Below the pieces are notes generated by a model. It saw nothing but the letters and a program-made list of their open reading frames with translations, was not told the origin of the DNA and did not search any database. This document shows positions 33,223 to 44,286 of a DNA stretch of 64,000 nt, piece after piece (within the stretch, counting starts at the first letter, position 1; each line of letters begins with the position of its first letter). The stretch is from a virus (Duplodnaviria > Heunggongvirae > Uroviricota > Caudoviricetes), in the IMG/VR virus record IMGVR_UViG_2639762987_000002; one strand, given 5' to 3'. The translations under genes and the position numbers were made by a program.

Positions 33223-36200
33223 TTGGACATGGAACAGTTCAAGAAGAAAAAATTACCGCTTCTTATTGCCGGTGCTGGTGGCAAGAAAAGTAAAAGCTCC
33301 AGCCGTACCCCGGTTGAAGCTGATGATACTGTCAATTCTCGTGCTATGGCAGCCATCCTCGACCTTCTTGGCGAGGGGGTTATCGGTGGCCTGGTAAATG
33401 GCGCAAAGTCGATCTTCATCGACGATTTACCGATCTTGAATGAAGATGGCTCTTCCAACTTCAGCGGTATTACATGGGATTTTCGTGACGGCTCACAAGA
33501 CCAGACGCCAATGGCTGGTTTTGATTTTGTTGAAACGCCTAAGTCCGTAAATATTCAGCTTAAAAAAACACACGACGTTACGGTTTCAATCGATAACGAT
33601 GAAGCTGATCGCGTTCGTGTCATCATGAAATTCCCCTCTTTACGTAGCGTTGATAAAAGCTCTGGCGATACAAATGGCACTACGGTGAAGTACAAATTCC
33701 AGATCGCCAACGCAGACGCAACATTTTCTGATGTAGTGGCAGAAGGTGAGAAAAGCGTTGATATCACGCTAACGGCAAAGAAAACAGGCGTGTATTACCG
33801 TAGCTATGAGCTGAAACTACCTAAGCCTGGTCGTGCATACAAGGTTAGGGTGATTCGTCTTACGGATGATAACAGTAGCCAGTACCTCTACAACGATACC
33901 TGGGTTGATTCCATCGGTGAGATTGTAGATACCCCCATGAACTACCCTAACTCTGCACTTGTTGGCTTAAAGGTCAATTCAGAGCAGTTTGGTAGCACAA
34001 TGCCTTCCCGTTCGTATTTGGTGCGCGGTATCAAAATTCGAGTGCCGTCAAACTACAACGAATACACCAATACTTATGTCGGCGTATGGGACGGTACTTT
34101 TAAGCTGTTGTCTTCTTCAAACCCTGCGTGGATTCTCTACGATTTGCTTACCAATACTCGGTATGGTCTTGGGCAATTTGTGTCGGAGTCCATGATTGAC
34201 CTCGGCCAGCTCTACCAGATTGGTCGATATTGTGACGAAGAGGTCGATGATGGCTTTGGGGGTAAAGAGAAACGCTTTGCAATCAATACGCAGATCACCA
34301 GTCGACAGGACGCATACCGATTAATTCAGGATATTGCCGGTGCATTCCGCGGCATGGTGTTTTGGGCTGGTGGCATGGTTAACATCATGCAGGATAGCCC
34401 ATCAGATCCGGTAATGATGTTTACCAACTCCAACGTCAAAGATGGACTGTTTACCTATAAAGGTTCTGCGCGTAAAGATCGCCCATCCGTTGCGCTCGTG
34501 ACCTACAACAACAAGGAGGACGGTTATAAGCAAAACATCGAGTACGTTGAAGATCAGGACGCAATGCGCCGTTATGGTGAGCGTAAAACAGAAGTCGTAG
34601 CATTTGGATGTACAAGCCGAGGCCAGGCCCACCGAGTTGGTTTGTGGCTTTTGTATACCGCCAGAATGGAGTCGGATGTAATTACATTTACTGCCGGCTT
34701 AGACGCCTCATTTCTGATGCCCGGTGAAACCGTTCTGATTCAGAACAAATATCGTGCAGGTAAACGTAACTCCGGTCGAATTGTGGAGTTTACCAAAAAC
34801 AGCATCACTCTCGATGCGCCTGTGTCGTTAGCTAAAAGCGGCAGCTTTATTCGGATATTGAATCAGGAAGGCAAAATCGTTGAACGCGATGTTCTTGAAA
34901 CTGGCGAAAACATAACAAAGGTTACGTTTTCAAAAGCCCTGTCGTCAGCGGAAACGCCTGTTTTGAACGGTGTCTGGACAATTACAGAACCAGATCTTGA
35001 ACCTATGCGCGTTCGCATCGTTAACATCGCGCAGGGGGAAACGCCGGGTAGCTTTGACATCACCGCTGTTGAGAACAATCCGTCTAAATATGAGGCAATC
35101 GACAATGGTGCAACGCTTATCCCGCAGAATACGACGGTATTGGACCCGACTTACTCCAAGCCGTCTAATTTGCAAATCACTGAAGGGACTTACCTCTCAA
35201 GCCCGGGCAACCTGTCAGTAAAACTGACTGCAACATGGGAAGGGAAATCTCCAGAGTATTGGATCAGTTGGCGACGTTCTGATGAAAACAATGTATCGAA
35301 CTGGCAATCGGCGCGTGTAACCGAAGAACAATACGAAATCGTTAATGTCGCGGAGAATGGACGCTACGACTTCCAACTGTATGCGGTTTCATTCAACGGT
35401 AAAAAAACAGAAATTATCAGTACCGTTTATCAGGTGCTGGGAACAATGACACCGCCGGATGCACCAACGTCATTAACGGCCGTTGGAGACTATCGTAATG
35501 TGATACTGAATTGGGTTAATCCAGATTCGGTAGACCTTGATCACATTAATGTTTACGCATCCCAGACCAACAATCTGGATACGGCGAAACTGATCGCAGA
35601 GTCTGCAAGCACCACCTTTACACATGCTGGTCTTGGGGATAGCGAAACGTGGTATTACTGGGTTCGAGCATCGAACAAGCGAGGTATGTTAAGCCCTCCG
35701 AACTCAAACTTGGGTACAGAGGCGACAACTCGCGATGTACTGTCGTTCCTGGCTGGCAAAATTACATCTTCCGAGCTTGGTCAGGCTCTGCTTGAGGACA
35801 TCAACAGCAAAGCCTCTCAAGAAGCAGTTGACGAGTTAAATGAGCATATCAACCAGAGCGTCGAATCTTTGGAGGGGTCGGTAAACGACGTTAAGGAAGA
35901 TATAGCTGAATTAGATAAGCAGTTCAGCGATAACCTCGCGGGTTTTGAAATAAAATTCAACGAGCGTAGCGATGCTTTGGAGAACGCACAAACCGAGCTT
36001 AAAGGTGAGGTTTCGGCAACGATCGACAAGGTCAATGAAGCGTTTGAAAAAATTGATGCTACTGATGCTGCAATTGTTGAAATCGAAAACACCGTATCTG
36101 AACACGATAAAGCTCTCGCTAATACAGTCGAGGCAATAAAGGCTGCAAGAGACGAAGCGGCGGCTCTTATTGCTAAGGAAAGCGAGGCTCGTGTTGAAGG

Positions 36201-37953
36201 TGATGCCGCAAACGCTAAACAACTGGAAGTGTTGCAGTCGACGGTAGAGGAAAGTTCCGCAGCCGTTGAAGAAATGAAAAAGACGGTTGCAGAGGTCGAT
36301 CGTGCCAGTGCAGAACTGACTACGAACATTGAGGCGTTAGCTAAAACAAATATTGACCTGGCTCTTCGTCAAGATGAAGACCAGCACAAGCAGATGGTCA
36401 ATAACGCGAAGATCGCAACAACACAGAAAACCTTTGCTGATGATATGTCTGCAATGGCCACGAAGGTTGAGGAAATTCGCGTAGAAATTGGCGAAGACAT
36501 TAAGGCCAGTATTCTGGAAGAGTCCACCGCTCGTGCCGATGGCGATGAAGCGTTGGCAAAGCGTGTCACTCAGCTGCAATCTAAGTTTGAAGGAGATATC
36601 AGCGCGGCGATTAGTACAGAACAGGAGGCTCGTACATCTGCCGATGAAGCTTTGACGAAACAAATAACTCAGCTTGAGTCGAAAGTAAGCAACGATATTG
36701 TCGCAGCCATTAAGGAAGAGCAAGAAGCCCGAGCAACGGAAGATTCGGCTCTGGCAAGCCAGATCACCCAACTTCAGGCAAAAGTTGATGATGATATTTC
36801 TGCTGCAATACGCAGTGAGCAGGAGGCGCGTGCGAGCGGAGACTCTGCGTTAGCTAAACAAATAAACCAGCTTCAAGCAAAGGTTGACGGTGATATATCC
36901 GCTGCCATCACTCAGGAGCAGGAGGCCAGAGCAAGTGCTGACCAGGCGCTCTCACGAGAAATTAACAGCCTGCGAGCACAAACCGGAACTGATATTGCCG
37001 CAGCGGTTGCTGTAGAGACAAAGGCAAGGACTGATGCCGATAGTGCATTGTCCACTCAGATTTCGTCTCTTACAGCAAAAGCTAATGATCTCGAGGCATC
37101 TCTTGCCAGAGAAACAACGGCTCGTGCTGATGGTGATACCGCTTTAACAAAAGAGGTTTCAAGTTTAAAAGCACAGACAGCGAAAGATATTAGTGCGGCC
37201 GTTGCAGTTGAAACGCAGGCTCGAACTGATGCTGACTCGGCGTTGTCGTCTCAGATCACCAAGCTGACCTCTCAATACAAAGAGGATATTAAAGCGGCTG
37301 TAGCAACCGAAACGAAAACGCGTACAGAGCAAGATGCTGCATTGGCGACTCAAATCACAAACTTAGAGTCTCAAACGGCAGCCAACATTTCCGCGGCGGT
37401 AACAACTGAAACGACAGCGAGAACGCAGGCAGATAATGCTCTGAGTGGGCGAATCGATACTCTGAAAGCAGAGGTGGATGGAAATACCGCGACAATTCAA
37501 CAGCAGGCAACAGCTATTGCTAATACCAACAAAAAAGTGTCAACCGCGTGGACGTTGAAAATGGAAACTTCAACGAGCGGAGGGCAGAAGTATGTTGCTG
37601 GTATTGCGCTTGGTATCGACACCACTGGCCTTTCTCAGTTTTTGGTGCAGGCTGACAGGTTTGGTTTGGTCAACTCTGTTAACGGGAAGATCACCACGCC
37701 ATTTGTTATCGAAAACAGTATCGCCTATATGAATGGTGCGTATATCAAGGATGGCACAATCACCAATGCAAAAGTAGGCGATCTGCAATCTACCAATTTT
37801 GTTAGCGGTAGATCTGGATGGCGGTTCGGCAAAAATGGAACGCTTGAGATCAACGGTAATAGCGGGGGTAATGGGCGACTGGTCATAAATGGTCAGCGGA
37901 TTGACGTTTATGACGATAACAACGTCTTACGAGTAAGAATTGGCCTTCTGTGA
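33223..37953 (+). CDS. central tail fibre / host specificity protein, lambda J-like (1576 aa)
   Basis: Blocks AFGCTSRGQAHRVGLWL, NPAWILYDLLTNTRYG and KYVAGIALGIDTTGLSQFLV match lambda J from memory; contains ~10 tandem 33-aa coiled-coil repeats. Confidence 0.85.
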   Translation: MDMEQFKKKKLPLLIAGAGGKKSKSSSRTPVEADDTVNSRAMAAILDLLGEGVIGGLVNGAKSIFIDDLPILNEDGSSNFSGITWDFRDGSQDQTPMAGFDFVETPKSVNIQLKKTHDVTVSIDNDEADRVRVIMKFPSLRSVDKSSGDTNGTTVKYKFQIANADATFSDVVAEGEKSVDITLTAKKTGVYYRSYELKLPKPGRAYKVRVIRLTDDNSSQYLYNDTWVDSIGEIVDTPMNYPNSALVGLKVNSEQFGSTMPSRSYLVRGIKIRVPSNYNEYTNTYVGVWDGTFKLLSSSNPAWILYDLLTNTRYGLGQFVSESMIDLGQLYQIGRYCDEEVDDGFGGKEKRFAINTQITSRQDAYRLIQDIAGAFRGMVFWAGGMVNIMQDSPSDPVMMFTNSNVKDGLFTYKGSARKDRPSVALVTYNNKEDGYKQNIEYVEDQDAMRRYGERKTEVVAFGCTSRGQAHRVGLWLLYTARMESDVITFTAGLDASFLMPGETVLIQNKYRAGKRNSGRIVEFTKNSITLDAPVSLAKSGSFIRILNQEGKIVERDVLETGENITKVTFSKALSSAETPVLNGVWTITEPDLEPMRVRIVNIAQGETPGSFDITAVENNPSKYEAIDNGATLIPQNTTVLDPTYSKPSNLQITEGTYLSSPGNLSVKLTATWEGKSPEYWISWRRSDENNVSNWQSARVTEEQYEIVNVAENGRYDFQLYAVSFNGKKTEIISTVYQVLGTMTPPDAPTSLTAVGDYRNVILNWVNPDSVDLDHINVYASQTNNLDTAKLIAESASTTFTHAGLGDSETWYYWVRASNKRGMLSPPNSNLGTEATTRDVLSFLAGKITSSELGQALLEDINSKASQEAVDELNEHINQSVESLEGSVNDVKEDIAELDKQFSDNLAGFEIKFNERSDALENAQTELKGEVSATIDKVNEAFEKIDATDAAIVEIENTVSEHDKALANTVEAIKAARDEAAALIAKESEARVEGDAANAKQLEVLQSTVEESSAAVEEMKKTVAEVDRASAELTTNIEALAKTNIDLALRQDEDQHKQMVNNAKIATTQKTFADDMSAMATKVEEIRVEIGEDIKASILEESTARADGDEALAKRVTQLQSKFEGDISAAISTEQEARTSADEALTKQITQLESKVSNDIVAAIKEEQEARATEDSALASQITQLQAKVDDDISAAIRSEQEARASGDSALAKQINQLQAKVDGDISAAITQEQEARASADQALSREINSLRAQTGTDIAAAVAVETKARTDADSALSTQISSLTAKANDLEASLARETTARADGDTALTKEVSSLKAQTAKDISAAVAVETQARTDADSALSSQITKLTSQYKEDIKAAVATETKTRTEQDAALATQITNLESQTAANISAAVTTETTARTQADNALSGRIDTLKAEVDGNTATIQQQATAIANTNKKVSTAWTLKMETSTSGGQKYVAGIALGIDTTGLSQFLVQADRFGLVNSVNGKITTPFVIENSIAYMNGAYIKDGTITNAKVGDLQSTNFVSGRSGWRFGKNGTLEINGNSGGNGRLVINGQRIDVYDDNNVLRVRIGLL

Positions 37954-38046: not shown

Positions 38047-41000
38047 ATGTGGTACAGGGAAGGTACTATCACATTTACACAGGGCAGCAATACTCTGGTT
38101 GGGGCAGGTACAGCCTGGAACGTAACAGCTAATGGTGTGTTGCCGGGGATGATCGTCATTGGCCCCGACAATAAGCTGTATGAGATCAAGCGCGTAACCA
38201 GTGATACGAACATTGTTCTCTCAGAACCTTATACCGGCGAAACTCAGTCTGAAGTTCCGTGCCGAATCATTACGACCTATGAAGGCGACTTAACACAGTT
38301 TAGCGCGCGCTTTACAGCACTAATGTCGCGTATGTCGGCTGATTCCAAGTCCATGCGCAGTTGGTTGACTGCTCTGGATGAGGTGACAATCGAGCGTGAA
38401 GACGGTACAGAAGTGACCGTTAAGCCGCTAATGCAGATCGTCAACGAGCACAACGAAAACGTTGAGTGGTATAAAAATAACACTGACGCGATTGATGCTG
38501 CTGGCGACAAAGCTCGTGAGGCGGCGGCCAGTGCTGCCGCAGCAGCAAAAAGCGCCAATGCCGCTGGAGAAAAAGCCTCTCAAGCGTCTCAAAGTGCATC
38601 CGCTGCGGCATCCTCACAAAGTGCCGCAAGTGCGAGTGCAACTGCTGCGAAAAAATCTGAAACGAATGCTGCAGCGTCACAAAAATCTGCAGCCACTTCT
38701 GCATCCACCGCGACCACGAAGGCGTCAGAAGCTGCCACCTCAGCCCGGGATGCGGCGGCCTCAAAAGAGGCAGCAAAATCATCAGAAACGAGCGCAGCCT
38801 CGAGCGCCAGTAATGCCGCTTCCTCGGCAACGGCGGCTGGAAATTCCGCGAAGGCGGCAAAAACGTCCGAGACGAACGCCAGGTCTTCTGAAACGGCAGC
38901 GGGACAGAGCGCCTCGGCTGCGGCAGGCTCAAAAACAGCGGCTGCGTCGTCTGCCAGTGCCGCGTCAACAAGTGCCGGGCAGGCCTCAGCCAGTGCCACC
39001 GCCGCCGGAAAATCGGCAGAAAGTGCCGCATCGTCTGCTTCAACGGCCACAACGAAGGCTGGCGAAGCCACTGAACAGGCCAGCGCAGCAGCGAGGTCTG
39101 CTTCCGCAGCGAAGACATCCGAAACGAACGCGAAAGCGTCGGAAACCCGTGCAGAATCCTCAAAAACGGCAGCCGCATCGTCCGCCAGTTCGGCAGCGTC
39201 ATCGGCATCATCTGCGTCTGCTTCAAAAGATGAGGCGACCAGACAGGCGTCAGCAGCGAAGGGCAGCGCCACGACGGCATCCACGAAAGCAACAGAGGCG
39301 GCAGGCAGTGCGACGGCTGCATCTCAGAGCAAAACTGCTGCCGAATCTGCTGCGACTCGTGCAGAAGCTGCCGCTGATCGTGCTGAAGAGATTGCCGGTG
39401 CAGTTGCGATGGAAGACGCAAGCCTTACAACTAAAGGTGTTGTGAAACTTAGCAGTGCTGTCGATAGCACCAGTGAATCGCTGGCTGCAACGCCAAAGGC
39501 AGTTAAAACTGTTAAAGATAGTTCAGTTCAAAAAACTGGCGACACAATGGGAGGGCAGTTAAAAATCGGCACGATAAATGCTCTTCGAATATTCAACCAA
39601 GCCTTTGGCCTTATTTTTAGGCGTTCCGAAGATTATATTCATCTTATCCCGACTAATGAAGGGGAGGGAGAAAATGGAGACATCGGTTCATTAAGACCAT
39701 TCTCTATAAACTTAAGATCAGGGTTGGTGTCCATCGGTAATGGACTAAAAGTTGGTGGTAGTGTTACTGGTAATTTGACCGGAAACGCAGATACTGCGAC
39801 CAAGATCAAGACAGCACGTAAGATTGGGGGCGTGGCATTTGATGGATCGGCAGATATCAACTTGCCTGGAGTCAACGCTACCGGTAATCAAAACACTACA
39901 GGTAATGCTGCGACCGCCACGAAACTTCAGGCAGCCAGAACGATTAACGGTGTGTCATTTGATGGTAGTGCAAATATCACATTGACCCCTTCAAATATTG
40001 GGGCGTTGGCATTAACTGGAGGGACTCTTTCAGGTGGTTTAACTGCTGCTGGTGAGATTATTTCAAAGTCAGCAAATGGTCTGCGTATTGCCTATGGCAA
40101 CTATGGATTCTTTATCCGAAATGATGGCTCAAATACATATTTTATGTTGACAGATTCGGGTAACAGTCTTGGTACGTACAATAGCTTAAGGCCGTTTATA
40201 ATTAGTAACTCTACTGGCAATGTTACAATTGCAACTAAATTAAACGCGAGTAGTGGTATCACTGGATCTTTATCGGGTAATGCAAGCACAGCAACCAAAT
40301 TGCAGACAGCAAGAACCATCGGTGGTGTTAGCTTCGATGGCACTGCGAATATTAATTTGCCTGGTGTTAATGCTGCCGGTAATCAGAACACTACCGGTAA
40401 CGCGGCCACAGCGACCAAGTTGCAAACAGCTAGAACTATTAACGGGGTGTCGTTTAACGGCTCTGCGAATATTTCAATACCAACAATTACGTCCAGAGGG
40501 CGCGTTACTGCGCTCACCGGTACAACACAAGGTGCTGCGACTGGATTGCAGATGTACGAGGCATATAACAATGGCTACCCTTCGTCTTACGGGAATGTGC
40601 TTCATCTTAAGGGCGCAACGGCCGTTGGTGAAGGTGAGTTGTTCATAGGTTGGAGCGGTACAAGTGGTGCTCATGCACCTGTACATGTACGTTCGCGACG
40701 AGATACGGATACATCCAGTTGGTCTGAATGGGCGCAAGTTTATACGTCCAAAGACTCAATTCCAGGTGTCAATGCCACCGGTAATCAGAACACTACTGGC
40801 AACGCAGCCTCTGCAACGAAGTTGCAGACAGCCAGAACAATTGGAGGTGTGTCGTTTAATGGCACCGCCAATATTAACTTGCCGGGTGTTAATATAGCGG
40901 GTAATCAGAATACGACTGGTAACGCAGCTTCAGCCACGAAGTTACAAACGGCTCGTACTATCGGTGGTGTTAGTTTTAACGGCACAGCCAATATTAACTT

Positions 41001-41571
41001 ACCTGGTGTGAATACGACCGGTAATCAGAACACTACTGGTAATGCTGCAACCGCCACAAAATTGCAGACAGCAAGGAAAATTGCTGGTGTGGCGTTTGAT
41101 GGCTCTGCCGATATAACTTTGACTGCGGCTAACCTTAATGCTTATACGAAAACAGAGGTAACAAACCTTCTCAGTTCCTATGTGAAGAGTAGTTCTCTTC
41201 CAAGCATGACTGTGCGAACTTCCTCTGTTTCTGGTGGGGATATGGGCATGAGTTTGTCCACATTCATTAGCCACCTTAAATCAAATGGGGCATTTAGCAA
41301 AAGTTATTGGATTGGCTTTGGCGATGCTATGGGATTCAATGCTGGCAGTATCAACAATATAACGGGATTTGGTGCTGTAGAATTAGCAGAATCTATAATC
41401 GAAGTTTTTAATCTACCTAACGGTGATTATACAATTCGTTTAACAACGTCACATAAAGCTGACTACGGTGGAGTGACAAACGCAATCCTCGTTTATCACT
41501 ACCGTAGTAATAGAAGTCCGTCAGGTCAATGGCTGAAATTTGCCGGTACTGTTGGGGCAACAAGCAACTGA
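38047..41571 (+). CDS. side tail fibre protein (1174 aa)
   Basis: Ala/Ser-rich low-complexity segment with KTSETNA repeats, then ~7 copies of GNQNTTGNAATATKLQTARTIGGVSFDG phage tail-fibre repeats. Confidence 0.8.
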   Translation: MWYREGTITFTQGSNTLVGAGTAWNVTANGVLPGMIVIGPDNKLYEIKRVTSDTNIVLSEPYTGETQSEVPCRIITTYEGDLTQFSARFTALMSRMSADSKSMRSWLTALDEVTIEREDGTEVTVKPLMQIVNEHNENVEWYKNNTDAIDAAGDKAREAAASAAAAAKSANAAGEKASQASQSASAAASSQSAASASATAAKKSETNAAASQKSAATSASTATTKASEAATSARDAAASKEAAKSSETSAASSASNAASSATAAGNSAKAAKTSETNARSSETAAGQSASAAAGSKTAAASSASAASTSAGQASASATAAGKSAESAASSASTATTKAGEATEQASAAARSASAAKTSETNAKASETRAESSKTAAASSASSAASSASSASASKDEATRQASAAKGSATTASTKATEAAGSATAASQSKTAAESAATRAEAAADRAEEIAGAVAMEDASLTTKGVVKLSSAVDSTSESLAATPKAVKTVKDSSVQKTGDTMGGQLKIGTINALRIFNQAFGLIFRRSEDYIHLIPTNEGEGENGDIGSLRPFSINLRSGLVSIGNGLKVGGSVTGNLTGNADTATKIKTARKIGGVAFDGSADINLPGVNATGNQNTTGNAATATKLQAARTINGVSFDGSANITLTPSNIGALALTGGTLSGGLTAAGEIISKSANGLRIAYGNYGFFIRNDGSNTYFMLTDSGNSLGTYNSLRPFIISNSTGNVTIATKLNASSGITGSLSGNASTATKLQTARTIGGVSFDGTANINLPGVNAAGNQNTTGNAATATKLQTARTINGVSFNGSANISIPTITSRGRVTALTGTTQGAATGLQMYEAYNNGYPSSYGNVLHLKGATAVGEGELFIGWSGTSGAHAPVHVRSRRDTDTSSWSEWAQVYTSKDSIPGVNATGNQNTTGNAASATKLQTARTIGGVSFNGTANINLPGVNIAGNQNTTGNAASATKLQTARTIGGVSFNGTANINLPGVNTTGNQNTTGNAATATKLQTARKIAGVAFDGSADITLTAANLNAYTKTEVTNLLSSYVKSSSLPSMTVRTSSVSGGDMGMSLSTFISHLKSNGAFSKSYWIGFGDAMGFNAGSINNITGFGAVELAESIIEVFNLPNGDYTIRLTTSHKADYGGVTNAILVYHYRSNRSPSGQWLKFAGTVGATSN

Positions 41572-41661
41572 TTTAGACATTATTTCTAATAAGGATAATT
41601 TATAAGATGGTTGTGAGGTCGATAAATATGGCCTCACAACCGCAGTTATAAGGATATATTT

Positions 41662-41916
41662 ATGAGCTATGGTGCACAGGTTTGGTCGCCATCAAGACAG
41701 GAGATGGTCGATGCGTTGGCCCCTGTTTATTACCTCGATTATTTTACTCCCTCTGGTTCAGGAAGTAGAACATATGAGGTTGAGGCGGGATTGGGAATCG
41801 ACTATTACATAATGGACGTAACCAATGGAAAATACACAAGTCTTACGGTTTCTGGAAATACCATTTCGTGGTCTGGAGCTAGTGGCAATTTAAACATATT
41901 GGTTTTTCAAAAATAA
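41662..41916 (+). CDS. hypothetical protein (84 aa)
   Basis: ORF downstream of tail fibre. Confidence 0.45.
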   Translation: MSYGAQVWSPSRQEMVDALAPVYYLDYFTPSGSGSRTYEVEAGLGIDYYIMDVTNGKYTSLTVSGNTISWSGASGNLNILVFQK

Positions 41917-42524
41917 TGTACGGAAGCAAGATATATCGATCTGACGGGAAGGTCTGGATGTCTCCTTCTTTGTCTCCTATCGTTTTTCAGAGAAAGCAGG
42001 TTGTTTCTTTGTCTGGCGGGACAGAGTTTAACACCCAAATATCTCCAGATCGTTCACCGATGATTTTTGTTGCCTATTCGAAAGCTGTTTCATTAATAGC
42101 CAACAGAATAGTGCGTAATAACCAGGTGATTTACAGTTTCGGAGGTCAGGGTAGCGACTCTAGTGCCACGATATACGTATTTTCGAAAGGTATAGCCAAA
42201 AAAGAAACTTGGGGCATGAGTTTTTTCAATGCGCGAGGAGAGGAGATCTATAATACGGCAAATATCCCACTTTCATTTACCTTTCTTAATAATACGGAGT
42301 GGAACAGTTCTGGAGGGCATGTTTTTGATTACCCGCCAGCGATAATCCCAACATATGCAAATGTGTTCGCGGTTCCAGTACCGGGCGGGGCCATGACAAT
42401 GGTTTATGGATATGCGGCATATGGAAATACTGTTAGTTCCATATTCGTAAACCAACTTAATGGCGGCCATAGTTTTAGCGTAAATGGCAGAGTACCGGTA
42501 ATAAATAGAAATCTGTATAACTGA
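41916..42524 (+). CDS. hypothetical protein, possible tail-fibre accessory (202 aa)
   Basis: ORF; no similarity to lambda Tfa recognised. Confidence 0.45.
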   Translation: MYGSKIYRSDGKVWMSPSLSPIVFQRKQVVSLSGGTEFNTQISPDRSPMIFVAYSKAVSLIANRIVRNNQVIYSFGGQGSDSSATIYVFSKGIAKKETWGMSFFNARGEEIYNTANIPLSFTFLNNTEWNSSGGHVFDYPPAIIPTYANVFAVPVPGGAMTMVYGYAAYGNTVSSIFVNQLNGGHSFSVNGRVPVINRNLYN

Positions 42525-42534
42525 TGAGTAAACG

Positions 42535-42765
42535 ATGAAAAGATTATTTCTAACAATAGCTGTTGTTCTCTCTCTTACTGGCTGTCAGAAATTGCCGACA
42601 CCCATATGTTATGGTGAGGCTATCATTGGTGGACAGGAGACAGTCATACCTATATATGCTGTTAAAAAGGTTAACGGCTATACCTTATACAAAGCGGGTA
42701 GCATCTATAACTGGCGATGGGTTGGAGTAGGTGCTTTCTCATCAGTGCGTTGCAATGCTGAATGA
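42535..42765 (+). CDS. small lipoprotein (76 aa)
   Basis: Signal MKRLFLTIAVVLSLTGC with lipobox LTGC. Confidence 0.6.
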   Translation: MKRLFLTIAVVLSLTGCQKLPTPICYGEAIIGGQETVIPIYAVKKVNGYTLYKAGSIYNWRWVGVGAFSSVRCNAE

Positions 42766-42846
42766 TAAGTAAGTACACACCTACAACAAAAGGGTGAAAT
42801 GTGATATAAATCCGCCATCCCGATTTGACTTTTCATGGAGGAAAAC

Positions 42847-43170
42847 ATGTCGAACGAGATGGCGGGCGTTACAACAGAGCAAGTTGAGCGTATTGCCGCG
42901 ATCGTTGCTAGGGAGGTTGTTGGCAAATTAGGTAAAGAGCTACGTGAAGAAATTGGCCAGGAGGTCAATAATCAGCTGAAAACCTACTTTGGTGATATGA
43001 CCCCGGCGCAACATAGTATTCAACACTCCAATCTGGACAAACTCCTTAACCGGTTAGATTCCATCTCCAGTGGGTTCTTTGGCGGCATTGTTTCTAAAAT
43101 AACGTCGTTCATTATTACTGCACTGCTTTTGGGGTTAGCCGCGTATGGCGTAAAAAATGGACTGCAATAA
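42847..43170 (+). CDS. membrane protein, possible holin (107 aa)
   Basis: Single C-terminal TM helix ITSFIITALLLGLAAYGV; ATG 42847 after RBS ggagg; first gene of putative lysis cassette. Confidence 0.4.
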   Translation: MSNEMAGVTTEQVERIAAIVAREVVGKLGKELREEIGQEVNNQLKTYFGDMTPAQHSIQHSNLDKLLNRLDSISSGFFGGIVSKITSFIITALLLGLAAYGVKNGLQ

Positions 43171-43183
43171 CAGGAGATCAAGG

Positions 43184-43876
43184 ATGAAGACTCCGAGAGG
43201 CATTCGTAATAATAACCCCGGTAATCTTGATAAAGGATCACCGTGGCAAGGTCTGGTTGCGAATCCAGGCGAACCGCGCTTTTGCACGTTTAAAGACCCT
43301 GTTTGGGGAATTCGTGCGCTGGCGGTGACTCTAATTACCTACCACGACAAACGTCGCGCAAAAGACGGCTCAAGTATCGATACCATTCGTGAAGTTATTG
43401 AACGTTGGGCACCGCCGAATGAAAACAATACTGACGCCTACATTAATGAGGTGTCTAAAGCCGTTGGTGTAACCGCAGACATGATCATCGATCTGCATGA
43501 TTACGACATCCTTCGACCTTTGGTTGAGGCAATCATTCGCCACGAGAATGGCCGAGGCCCGCTAAAAACGCTGAACACCTGGTATGCGGCAGAAGTAATT
43601 GAGGAAGGTCTGCGTCGAGCTGGCGTTGTTAAGCCGGTGAAAACCGTGAAGGCTGTTCCTGTAACTAAAGAAACCGCAGGCGCAACTGTTACAGCAGGTA
43701 TTGGTCTGGCGCAGCTGGCCGATGTTATGCCGCAGGTTTCCGCTGCTATGGATAAAGCACAAGGTCATATCTCTAGCGGGGATACAGTACGCATCATCTT
43801 CGGTATTGCCACTATTGTTGTGGCAGGATTCATTGCCTGGTCGCAGGTAAGAAAACACCAGAAAGGGATGGTCTAA
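43184..43876 (+). CDS. putative endolysin / cell-wall hydrolase with C-terminal membrane anchor (230 aa)
   Basis: Position between holin-like and spanin-like genes; conserved-looking RNNNPGNL motif; C-terminal hydrophobic helix; family not assigned. Confidence 0.4.
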   Translation: MKTPRGIRNNNPGNLDKGSPWQGLVANPGEPRFCTFKDPVWGIRALAVTLITYHDKRRAKDGSSIDTIREVIERWAPPNENNTDAYINEVSKAVGVTADMIIDLHDYDILRPLVEAIIRHENGRGPLKTLNTWYAAEVIEEGLRRAGVVKPVKTVKAVPVTKETAGATVTAGIGLAQLADVMPQVSAAMDKAQGHISSGDTVRIIFGIATIVVAGFIAWSQVRKHQKGMV

Positions 43877-43877
43877 T

Positions 43878-44129
43878 ATGCTAGGCAGCCTGATGACAAA
43901 GCTAAAAGTTGCTTTGATTACGCTGGCTGCCGTTCTTTTCGTTCTTGTCGGCGCTTACACGATGGGCGGGAATGCGGCGCGACGAGCAATGGAAGAGAAG
44001 GCAAAACAGGAAGACAGAAAACGACTTCAAAGCACAGTGGATGTCAAAAATGAAACGGTTAATGAAGTGCGGCAAAAAGATGCCTCTGGTGTTCATCGCG
44101 AGCTGTTTGATAAATGGGTGCGTGATTAA
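43878..44129 (+). CDS. i-spanin, Rz-like (83 aa)
   Basis: N-terminal TM helix then charged coiled-coil periplasmic domain. Confidence 0.55.
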   Translation: MLGSLMTKLKVALITLAAVLFVLVGAYTMGGNAARRAMEEKAKQEDRKRLQSTVDVKNETVNEVRQKDASGVHRELFDKWVRD

Positions 44130-44286
44130 GACGCAGGCTCCAGGCGTGCTATTCTGCGATGCTGCAAATCCTATTTATGTGAGTAGAGAGGATTTTATGA
44201 CTGAGGAAACGGAGCGACAGTTGCTTATCCACAATACGATAGGTGAAAGGCTGTGTGAGTGGGGGGCACCTGAACTGAGTCGATGA
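44041..44286 (+). CDS. putative o-spanin, Rz1-like lipoprotein, overlapping Rz in another frame
   Basis: Within the listed ORF 43945..44286: KRLMKCGKKMPLVFIASC gives a lipobox (IASC); start codon uncertain (44041, 44050 or 44062). Confidence 0.4.
   Translation: MSKMKRLMKCGKKMPLVFIASCLINGCVIKTQAPGVLFCDAANPIYVSREDFMTEETERQLLIHNTIGERLCEWGAPELSR

What the first reader, a model, noticed from the sequence alone, without database searches (positions are those of the whole stretch)
42535..42765. Small lipoprotein immediately downstream of the tail-fibre genes
A 76-aa lipoprotein (lipobox LTGC) follows the side tail fibre, the same arrangement as receptor-blocking superinfection-exclusion lipoproteins such as T5 Llp or Cor of phi80/N15.
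Basis: inference. Interest (0 to 1): 0.4.

Follow-up and report, generated by a model that had tools for sequence, protein, structure and literature searches.

The report
Cor receptor-blocking lipoprotein of a phage-plasmid
The small lipoprotein gene is a real, already-annotated member of the Cor family, phage proteins that shut the cell-surface receptor their own phage uses so that no further phage can enter; it is an ordinary example in an SSU5-like phage-plasmid of E. coli.

The parts
42535..42765 (+). cor: 76-aa precursor of a Cor-family phage exclusion lipoprotein (mature part 60 aa from Cys17)
42535..42585 (+). Signal peptide with lipobox L-T-G-C (codons 14-17 = 42574..42585). Cys17 is the lipidated +1 residue and Gln18 at +2 predicts sorting to the outer membrane.
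   Evidence: Read directly from the sequence. Weak Pfam LPAM_1 match, E=0.0065. Cys17 is invariant in the alignment. It is the only lipoprotein-type (SPII-like) N-terminus among 422 ORFs.
42607..42753 (+). Span from the Cys25 codon (42607..42609) to the Cys73 codon (42751..42753). The two Cys form a conserved pair, the likely intramolecular disulfide tying the two ends of the mature domain (mature numbering Cys9-Cys57).
   Evidence: C25 is invariant and C73 is conserved in at least 90% of 20 homologues. T5 Llp has the equivalent Cys11-Cys58 disulfide, and the pair is shared between Llp and the Cor family (PMC9586334). The bond itself is inferred.
41662..41916 (+). First gene of the cassette: 84-aa protein of the N15 gp22 family (PHROG 557, labelled 'outer membrane protein')
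   Evidence: PHROG 557, E=1.3e-24. 28% identical to N15 gp22. No hydrophobic segment: maximum Kyte-Doolittle score over 19 residues is 0.54.
41916..42524 (+). Second gene of the cassette: 202-aa protein of the N15 gp23 family (PHROG 425). It is a probable tail-tip receptor-binding protein or accessory protein. Its start overlaps the upstream stop by 1 nt (TAATG), as in N15.
   Evidence: PHROG 425, E=5.5e-49. 75% identical to SSU5 over the full 202 aa, including the 14 N-terminal residues that RefSeq leaves out. 23% identical to N15 gp23, over the N-terminal 144 aa only. No transmembrane segment or signal peptide. Overlap sequence.
41608..41642 (+). 14-bp stem-loop between the tail-fibre gene and the cassette, with no U-tract. 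It may act as a transcript boundary or stabiliser.
   Evidence: Fold energy -25.6 kcal/mol, z=-4.8, with 0 of 200 shuffles folding as well. It is conserved in Cyrano with a paired T>C / A>G change in the stem.
38047..41571 (+). Side (lateral) tail-fibre gene, 1174 aa (context)
   Evidence: Pfam Gp34_trimer E=4e-26 and many tail-fibre PHROGs.
33223..37953 (+). J-like central tail-tip protein (context). Its C-terminal ~200 aa resemble the tip of N15 gp21.
   Evidence: NCBIfam lambda_TipJ E=2e-159. 31% identical to the C-terminus of N15 gp21. 99% identical to Cyrano J over the last 499 aa.
42835..44286 (+). Lysis cassette directly downstream: holin 42835..43170, endolysin 43157..43876, i-spanin 43878..44129, and an o-spanin lipoprotein inside ORF 43945..44286 (lipobox LINGC). 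This shows that cor is not the spanin.
   Evidence: PHROG 5093, 873 (endolysin), 1026 and 1275 (Rz-like spanins). Annotations of the orthologous genes in SSU5 and Cyrano.

Best explanation
The gene encodes a Cor-family phage exclusion lipoprotein. After export, lipidation at Cys17 and Lol-dependent sorting (Gln at +2), the 60-residue mature domain would sit on the periplasmic face of the outer membrane, probably clamped by a Cys25-Cys73 disulfide. There it would bind the periplasmic side of the outer-membrane protein that this phage uses as its terminal receptor. As shown for T5 Llp on FhuA, binding would lock the receptor in a conformation that phage receptor-binding proteins can no longer recognise. 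A cell carrying or replicating the phage-plasmid would then resist reinfection by the same and other phages using that receptor, and released virions would not be wasted on cell debris. The gene is the last member of a three-gene receptor-specificity cassette (gp22-like, gp23-like, cor) placed between the side tail-fibre gene and the holin. The most likely target is the ferrichrome transporter FhuA (my estimate about 0.55). Shown here: family membership, lipoprotein signals, the Llp-like predicted fold, cassette structure and cassette distribution. Inferred: localisation, the disulfide, receptor binding, receptor identity, and whether expression occurs in the plasmid (lysogenic) state or only during lytic growth. 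The confidence given (0.8) is for the Cor-type receptor-blocking role as such, whatever the receptor.
For: Family and sequence:
- NCBIfam equivalog NF047972 'phage exclusion lipoprotein Cor' scores 79.5 bits against a cut-off of 31, covering residues 1-74. PHROG 1119 'Cor superinfection exclusion protein' gives E=7.8e-30.
- tblastn shows 59% identity to SSU5 Cor-like, 58% to Stx2 phage 86 Cor, 47% to HK-type lambdoid Cor, and 42% to phi80 and N15 Cor. It shows 31-36% to Cor of FhuA-dependent Dhillonvirus and Hanrivervirus phages (JLBYU60, Teewinot, JLBYU41) (receptors from PMC10373560).
- Invariant residues C17, C25, G27, G32, G33, I40, Y41, T50, Y52, A54, G55 and W60, and near-invariant C73.

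Fold:
- The AF2 model has mean pLDDT 84, and above 92 over residues 21-70.
- The top BFVD hits are a Dhillonvirus exclusion protein (E=4.6e-6) and lipoproteins of T5-like phages.

Cassette:
- The two upstream genes belong to PHROG 557 and 425, as do N15 gp22 and gp23. They show the same 1-nt overlap as in N15.
- The gp22-gp23-cor order downstream of tail genes is described for T1, HK022, N15, ES18 and phi80, all FhuA phages (PMC13164509). The concept of a receptor-binding protein paired with its own exclusion protein is in PMC8594841 and bioRxiv 10.64898/2026.04.02.716166.
- The cassette is an exact indel relative to Cyrano.
- Cor and the tail-locus gp23-like gene co-occur about 1:1 in plasmids: 74 versus 73 records in Escherichia/Shigella, and about 57 versus 53 in other genera.

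Mechanism of the structural analogue: PMC9586334.
Against: - No experiment exists for this protein or for any SSU5-like Cor.
- The receptor is not identified. SSU5 is only known to need the LPS core, through its tail fibre (PMC12312913 citing Kim 2014).
- The gp23-like partner is very divergent from N15 gp23: 23% identity, N-terminal 144 aa only.
- Its closest Drexlerviridae relatives are warwickviruses (31%). Those phages are reported not to be FhuA-dependent and carry the pair without cor.
- Cor-like lipoproteins also occur in BtuB-dependent phages (PMC13164509). A lipoprotein of the T5-like phage DT571/2 is the second-best BFVD match.
- Foldseek against the PDB gave no significant hit; Llp ranked 44th with E=0.48.
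- No promoter-like site lies directly upstream of cor, and the promoter scan found no more sites than chance. Expression in the plasmid state is therefore not supported by sequence.
Confidence: 0.8

Rival explanations
1. It is a Cor/Llp-type exclusion lipoprotein, but its target is not FhuA. The target would be another TonB-dependent transporter (for example BtuB) or another outer-membrane protein, matched to the divergent gp23-like protein encoded next to it. (This is a variant within the best explanation, differing only in the receptor.)
For: The gp23-like partner aligns with N15 gp23 only over its N-terminal 144 aa at 23% identity. Its nearest Drexlerviridae relatives are warwickviruses, reported as not FhuA-dependent. 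Cor-like proteins occur in BtuB-targeting phages, and a lipoprotein of the T5-like phage DT571/2 is BFVD hit 2 at 25% identity. Between this element and SSU5, the cassette is about ten times more diverged at non-synonymous sites than the flanking lysis genes (pN 0.17-0.30 against 0.03). That pattern is expected of a specificity locus.
Against: The protein passes the Cor equivalog model by a wide margin. Identity falls from FhuA-phage Cor (42% phi80/N15; 31-36% FhuA-dependent Dhillon- and Hanriverviruses) to 25% for the DT571/2 lipoprotein. In the BASEL set, the complete three-gene cassette has so far been found only in FhuA phages (PMC13164509).
Confidence: 0.27
2. It is a lipoprotein with a role other than exclusion. 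Examples would be an assembly or stabilising factor for the neighbouring tail-tip proteins, or a host-fitness gene such as the lambda Bor serum-resistance lipoprotein.
For: Only 10 nt separate it from the gp23-like gene, and no promoter of its own was found, so it is probably co-expressed with tail-tip genes. No phenotype has been measured for this subfamily.
Against: It shows clear homology to experimentally characterised Cor proteins. It has an Llp-like fold. It has no detectable similarity to other lipoprotein families. About 115 related plasmids carry a gp22/gp23-like pair without any cor, so cor is dispensable for whatever that pair does.
Confidence: 0.07
3. It is the outer-membrane spanin (Rz1-like lipoprotein) of the lysis cassette that starts 69 nt downstream.
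For: It is a small outer-membrane lipoprotein located just upstream of the holin gene.
Against: The lysis cassette has its own i-spanin (43878..44129, PHROG 1026, E=6e-25). It also has its own o-spanin lipoprotein (within 43945..44286, PHROG 1275, E=2e-25, lipobox LINGC). The cor product hits no spanin family. Cyrano has the same lysis cassette at 95% identity but lacks cor.
Confidence: 0.01

Closest known systems
Cor of phages phi80, N15, HK022, mEp167 and T1 (phage exclusion lipoprotein; NCBIfam NF047972, PHROG 1119)
   Same: Same family by curated profile. It is 42% identical to phi80/N15 Cor over the full length. It has the same size (76-78 aa), the same lipobox and the same conserved Cys pair. 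It holds the same position as last gene after a gp22-like and a gp23-like gene, including the 1-nt overlap between those two.
   Different: The carrier is a ~108-kb SSU5-like circular phage-plasmid, not a lambdoid or T1-like phage. The cassette is separated from the J gene by a 3.5-kb side tail-fibre gene rather than following J directly. cor is only 10 nt from the upstream gene, against 111 nt in N15, so it may lack its own promoter. The partner gp23-like protein is only 23% identical to that of N15. The exclusion phenotype and FhuA targeting are untested.
SSU5_025 'Cor-like protein' of Salmonella phage SSU5 and the 'lipoprotein' genes of Enterobacter, Salmonella and Citrobacter SSU5-like plasmids
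   Same: It is the orthologue at the same position (gp22-like, gp23-like, cor, holin) in the same type of element. The region is collinear from the cassette through the lysis genes.
   Different: It is only 57-59% identical in protein, while the flanking holin and endolysin are 94-95% identical. The E. coli and Salmonella/Enterobacter alleles are therefore distinct specificity variants or were exchanged separately.
Llp (lytic conversion lipoprotein) of phage T5, PDB 8A60 and 7QJF
   Different: About 15% identity, and no significant sequence match (Llp was not found by phmmer against the PDB). The neighbouring receptor-binding gene in T5 (pb5) is unrelated to the gp22/gp23-like genes here.
Rtp45 of phage Rtp (exclusion lipoprotein acting on LptD)
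   Same: Same logic: a small exclusion protein encoded in the receptor-specificity locus next to the receptor-binding protein (PMC12685063).
   Different: No sequence or structural similarity was detected here, and the target is different.

Membership tests
Cor phage exclusion lipoproteins (NCBIfam NF047972 / PHROG 1119) | Full-length match to the family profile above the curated cut-off | tested here: met
   79.5 bits against a cut-off of 31, residues 1-74 on profile positions 1-77 of 78. PHROG 1119 E=7.8e-30.
Cor phage exclusion lipoproteins (NCBIfam NF047972 / PHROG 1119) | Signal peptidase II signal peptide with a lipobox Cys and no inner-membrane retention residue at +2 | tested here: met
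   MKR, hydrophobic core, LTG/C17, Gln18. Cys17 is invariant. It is the only such N-terminus among 422 ORFs.
Cor phage exclusion lipoproteins (NCBIfam NF047972 / PHROG 1119) | Conserved Cys pair near both ends of the ~60-aa mature domain (intramolecular disulfide shared with Llp) | tested here: met
   C25 is invariant and C73 is at least 90% conserved. The Llp Cys11-Cys58 bond and its conservation in Cor are reported in PMC9586334. Formation of the bond itself was not tested.
Cor phage exclusion lipoproteins (NCBIfam NF047972 / PHROG 1119) | Encoded as the last gene of the gp22-like / gp23-like / cor cassette next to tail-tip genes | tested here: met
   PHROG 557 and 425 for the two upstream genes, the same families as N15 gp22 and gp23. 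The cassette is described in PMC13164509.
Cor phage exclusion lipoproteins (NCBIfam NF047972 / PHROG 1119) | Excludes FhuA-dependent phages and inactivates FhuA transport | not testable with these tools
   This needs plating, adsorption and ferrichrome or albomycin assays. Only indirect evidence from homology is available.
T5 Llp-like exclusion lipoproteins (structure 8A60/7QJF) | Llp fold | tested here: met
T5 Llp-like exclusion lipoproteins (structure 8A60/7QJF) | Detectable sequence homology to Llp | tested here: not met
   phmmer against all PDB sequences did not return Llp at E<=10. Identity in the structural alignment is 15%.
o-spanins (Rz1-like) | Match to a spanin family and pairing with an i-spanin gene | tested here: not met
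   There is no spanin hit for cor. A separate i-/o-spanin pair lies at 43878..44286.
SSU5-like phage-plasmids (the carrier element) | Collinear SSU5-type tail, lysis, partition and replication genes on a ~100-115-kb plasmid | tested here: met
   The cassette region is 100% identical to the 108,185-bp E. coli plasmid NZ_CP070135.1. Gene order is as in SSU5 and Cyrano. All 70 copies in RefSeq E. coli genomes are on plasmids.

The most novel reading that the evidence does not exclude
The E. coli SSU5-type Cor may be a specificity variant that, together with its divergent gp23-like partner, targets an outer-membrane protein other than FhuA. Alternatively, it may be expressed from the resident plasmid, so that about 1% of sequenced E. 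coli carry a silent receptor block. Such a block would change their sensitivity to therapeutic phages, albomycin, colicin M and microcin J25, and their ferrichrome uptake. Either case would also reveal a so far unrecognised protein receptor for SSU5-like phage-plasmids, which are currently known only as LPS-core binders.
Probability: 0.25. Interest if true: 0.35.

Novelty: already known. Interest (0 to 1): 0.15.

Why it matters
Receptor-blocking lipoproteins decide which phages can still infect a cell that already carries a phage. This one rides on SSU5-like phage-plasmids. These elements are common in clinical and animal Enterobacteriaceae: this cassette allele is in 68 of 5,426 complete E. 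coli genomes, and Cor homologues are in 145 PLSDB plasmids. Some of these elements carry resistance genes. If the gene is expressed from the plasmid, it would give carriers resistance to a class of phages and to FhuA-dependent antibiotics and colicins, and it would point to the protein receptor of these phages. As a discovery it adds little, because the family, the cassette and this very protein's annotation already exist.

Tried and rejected
- Word-indexed homology search with the window protein found only 3 truncated near-identical proteins. I re-ran it with N15 Cor to obtain an alignment usable for structure prediction.
- phmmer against PDB sequences returned only designed 'Pizza' beta-propeller proteins matching residues 33-58, with no stretch significant on its own. 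I treated these as repeat-inflated chance similarity.
- The promoter and terminator scan around the cassette found no more sites than shuffled sequence and none directly upstream of cor. The region between cor and the holin gene has no stable structure (z=0.26). The timing of expression therefore could not be inferred.
- I tested whether the J-tip differs between elements with and without the cassette. It does not: window and Cyrano are 99% identical over the last 499 aa. J-tip covariation therefore gives no clue to the receptor.
- I tried to infer the receptor from the gp23-like protein. Its closest characterised relatives have an unknown, non-FhuA receptor, so the result is inconclusive.
- dN/dS against SSU5 could not be computed for the cassette because synonymous sites are saturated (pS about 0.8). 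Only pN and pS are reported.
- The papers by Wietzorrek 2006 and Kim 2014 are not held in the library.
- Spanin, chance-ORF and Bor-like readings were rejected (see rival explanations).

Full report
**1. The observation**

The + strand ORF 42535..42765 encodes 76 residues. Its N-terminus has Met-Lys-Arg, an 11-residue hydrophobic core and the lipobox Leu-Thr-Gly-Cys17, followed by Gln at +2. By the established +2 rule this predicts Lol-dependent transfer to the outer membrane.

Among 422 ORFs of at least 40 aa in all six frames, this is the only one with such an N-terminus. Cys17 is invariant among homologues. Against the SSU5 orthologue, non-synonymous differences (pN 0.30) are far fewer than synonymous ones (pS 0.81). 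The gene is therefore real.

The one inaccuracy concerns its neighbours. The side tail-fibre gene ends at 41571. Two genes follow it, 41662..41916 (84 aa) and 41916..42524 (202 aa). cor starts 10 nt after the second.

**2. What element this is**

The cassette region is 100% identical to the 108-kb E. coli plasmid NZ_CP070135.1; the adjacent lysis region is 99.8% identical. The gene order matches Salmonella phage SSU5 and E. coli phage-plasmid Cyrano: J-like tail tip, side tail fibre, lysis genes, ParA, helicase. The window is thus part of an SSU5-like phage-plasmid.

**3. What the protein is**

Sequence profiles:
- It matches the NCBIfam equivalog model NF047972 'phage exclusion lipoprotein Cor' at 79.5 bits (cut-off 31) over its whole length.
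- It matches PHROG 1119 'Cor superinfection exclusion protein' at E=7.8e-30.
- Pfam has no family for it beyond a weak lipid-attachment-site match.

Identity in the phage collection:
- 59% to SSU5_025 ('Cor-like') and 58% to Cor of Stx2 phage 86.
- 47% to Cor of HK-type lambdoid phages.
- 42% to the experimentally studied Cor of phi80 and N15.
- 31-36% to Cor of Dhillonvirus and Hanrivervirus phages, several of which are experimentally FhuA-dependent (JLBYU60, Teewinot, JLBYU41).

An alignment of 20 members shows invariant C17, C25, G27, G32, G33, I40, Y41, T50, Y52, A54, G55 and W60, and nearly invariant C73. RefSeq already annotates the identical protein (WP_032203357.1) as 'cor, phage exclusion lipoprotein Cor'.

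**4. Fold**

An AlphaFold2 model built on 28 sequences is confident over the mature domain, with block pLDDT of 92-94 for residues 21-70. It is all-beta with five strands.

- Foldseek against the PDB found nothing significant. Llp appeared only at rank 44 (E=0.48, TM 0.57 normalised to Llp).
- In the viral structure library, the best matches are a Dhillonvirus exclusion protein (E=4.6e-6) and lipoproteins of T5-like phages.

In mature numbering the conserved cysteines are Cys9 and Cys57. Llp has a Cys11-Cys58 disulfide that constrains its termini, and that paper notes the pair is shared with the Cor family (PMC9586334). Two recent papers reached the same conclusion, that Cor and Llp share a fold, for other Cor proteins.

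**5. The cassette**

The 84-aa and 202-aa proteins belong to PHROG 557 and 425. These are the families of N15 gp22 and gp23. As in N15, the second gene starts on the last base of the first gene's stop codon (TAATG).

[quoted passage not shown] Neither protein has a signal peptide or a hydrophobic segment.

The gp22-gp23-cor order next to tail genes has been described for T1, HK022, N15, ES18 and phi80, all FhuA-dependent. In the BASEL phages the full three-gene set was found only in FhuA users (PMC13164509). Work on small siphoviruses holds that the locus after gpJ encodes a separate receptor-binding protein plus its own exclusion protein (PMC8594841; bioRxiv 10.64898/2026.04.02.716166).

Here the cassette is displaced from J by the 3.5-kb side tail-fibre gene and abuts the holin gene.

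**6. The cassette as a unit**

Against Cyrano, homology is as follows:
- 98% through J and the start of the tail fibre.
- 91% through the tail-fibre end and the intergenic hairpin, up to window 41669.
- 95% again from window 42764.

The 1,094 bp from the start codon of the 84-aa gene to the stop codon of cor are replaced by about 41 bp in Cyrano. Cyrano still shows a remnant of the first codons (GTG AGT TAC TAG against ATG AGC TAT GG). This favours loss in the Cyrano lineage.

Against SSU5 the region is collinear from the cassette through the lysis genes. The cassette proteins are much more diverged (57%, 75% and 69% identity; pN 0.17-0.30; pS saturated near 0.8) than the holin and endolysin (94-95% identity; pN 0.03; pS 0.55-0.64). 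This is the pattern of a specificity locus or of separate exchange.

In PLSDB:
- The SSU5-type lysis cassette occurs in 389 plasmids.
- Cor occurs in 145.
- A gp23-like gene occurs in 241.

The tail-locus type of the gp23-like gene (at least 60% identity) occurs in 126 records, which matches the number of SSU5-type Cor carriers. In Escherichia/Shigella the counts are 74 and 73. The cassette therefore travels as a unit.

In RefSeq complete E. coli genomes the cassette is in 68 of 5,426, always on plasmids.

**7. How it most likely works**

This follows from homology with Cor and from the Llp-FhuA structure. The lipoprotein is anchored in the inner leaflet of the outer membrane. It binds the periplasmic face of the phage's terminal receptor and holds it in a state that receptor-binding proteins cannot use. 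This blocks adsorption of further phages and, for a TonB-dependent transporter, also blocks its transport function.

The sequence-level steps are shown here: family, signals, fold and cassette. Localisation, binding and phenotype are inferred.

**8. Which receptor**

FhuA is favoured for three reasons:
- The protein passes the equivalog-level Cor model.
- Identity is highest to Cor of FhuA phages.
- The complete three-gene cassette is present.

The inference is nonetheless not safe, for these reasons:
- The gp23-like protein aligns with N15 gp23 only over its N-terminal 144 residues, at 23%.
- Its nearest Drexlerviridae relatives (31%, full length) are warwickviruses such as tonijn and JLBYU10. 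These are reported not to be FhuA-dependent, and their pair has no cor beside it.
- Cor-like proteins exist in BtuB-dependent phages.
- In Stx2 phage 86, the 58%-identical Cor follows a tail-fibre adhesin rather than the pair.
- SSU5 itself is only known to bind the LPS core through its tail fibre.

I put FhuA at about 0.55 and another outer-membrane protein at about 0.27.

**9. Expression**

Only 10 nt separate cor from the upstream gene, against 111 nt in N15. No promoter-like site lies in front of it, and the scan as a whole is at chance level. A strong hairpin (41608..41642, z=-4.8) stands between the tail-fibre gene and the cassette. It is conserved in Cyrano with a compensatory change. 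Whether cor is made in the plasmid state (lysogenic conversion, as in N15 and phi80) or only during lytic growth (as for T1 and T5) cannot be decided from sequence.

**10. Rivals**

A spanin role is excluded by the separate spanin pair (PHROG 1026 and 1275) and by Cyrano, which has the same lysis genes but no cor. A non-exclusion lipoprotein role is unlikely given the homology and fold. About 115 related plasmids carry a gp22/gp23-like pair without any Cor, so cor is not needed for that pair's function.

**11. Verdict**

The finding is an ordinary, already annotated Cor gene. The open points are the receptor and the timing of expression in SSU5-like phage-plasmids.

Noticed in passing
L008:5934-6832 (Cyrano OV696614.1 81933-82831); L005:3714-4615 (PhiR41_1); empty slot in L007 between 10017 and 10159 (NZ_CP070135.1 34016-34158): SSU5-like phage-plasmids that lack the cor cassette at the tail locus (Cyrano, PhiR41_1) carry a distant gp22/gp23-like pair about 52 kb away. 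It lies between a PHROG 5508 gene and a DUF4942 gene, has no cor beside it, and is 34% and 26% identical to the window pair (PHROG 557 E=6e-29, PHROG 425 E=2e-70). The window's own plasmid has that slot empty. In PLSDB, 126 plasmids have the tail-locus type, about 115 have only the remote type, and at most 11 show two places. The two locations look nearly mutually exclusive, and the reason is unknown.
   Followed up: partly
window 41916..42524 versus the RefSeq start at window 41958: RefSeq and the SSU5 record start the gp23-like gene 14 codons later (188 aa). The 14 extra N-terminal residues are conserved in SSU5 (MYGSKIYRSDGKVW against MYGSKIVRSDGKVW) and align with N15 gp23. The longer ORF also reproduces the 1-nt TAATG overlap seen in N15. 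The annotated start is therefore probably too short.
   Followed up: partly
window 41608..41642: A 14-bp stem-loop without a U-tract lies between the side tail-fibre gene and the cassette (-25.6 kcal/mol, z=-4.8). It is conserved in Cyrano with a compensatory T>C / A>G change. Its function is unknown.
   Followed up: partly
window 43157..43876: The endolysin (PHROG 873) has a hydrophobic C-terminal segment (about residues 205-230, IIFGIATIVVAGFIAWSQV), and RefSeq calls it 'membrane protein'. It is possibly a C-terminally anchored endolysin.
   Followed up: no
window 43945..44286: The o-spanin lipoprotein (lipobox LINGC, PHROG 1275) overlaps the end of the i-spanin gene and is not annotated in NZ_CP070135.1. 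Cyrano annotates only a 39-aa Rz1 that would start after the lipobox.
   Followed up: no
window 38047..41571: The side tail-fibre protein has a long Ala/Ser/Thr-rich low-complexity stretch (about residues 140-450). It also has at least seven copies of a ~40-aa module (...NQNTTGNAA[TS]ATKLQTARTI[GN]GVSF[DN]G[ST]ANI...). Homology to the Cyrano fibre breaks down inside this repeat region.
   Followed up: no
window 42631..42708 (Cor residues 33-58); P0029: The central beta-hairpin region of Cor gives repeat-inflated sequence matches to designed 'Pizza' beta-propeller proteins in the PDB. It also matches a 1,087-aa metagenomic protein with 19 matching repeats (E=2.5e-26). Pfam finds only DUF4543 in that protein. 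This is probably convergent hairpin sequence, but it is unexplained.
   Followed up: partly
L010:4986-5213 (Stx2-converting phage 86, NC_008464.1 19828-20055): A Cor 58% identical to the window protein sits in a short-tailed Stx2 phage directly after a tail fibre and a 'tail fiber adhesin', inside a region noted as O86-specific. That phage's own gp22/gp23-like pair lies 3.3 kb further on, next to lom. Cor can therefore move independently of the pair.
   Followed up: no
L007:17409-17885 (NZ_CP070135.1 41408-41884, outside the window): The plasmid that matches the window carries the trimethoprim-resistance gene dfrA51 among its phage replication and nucleotide-metabolism genes.
   Followed up: no
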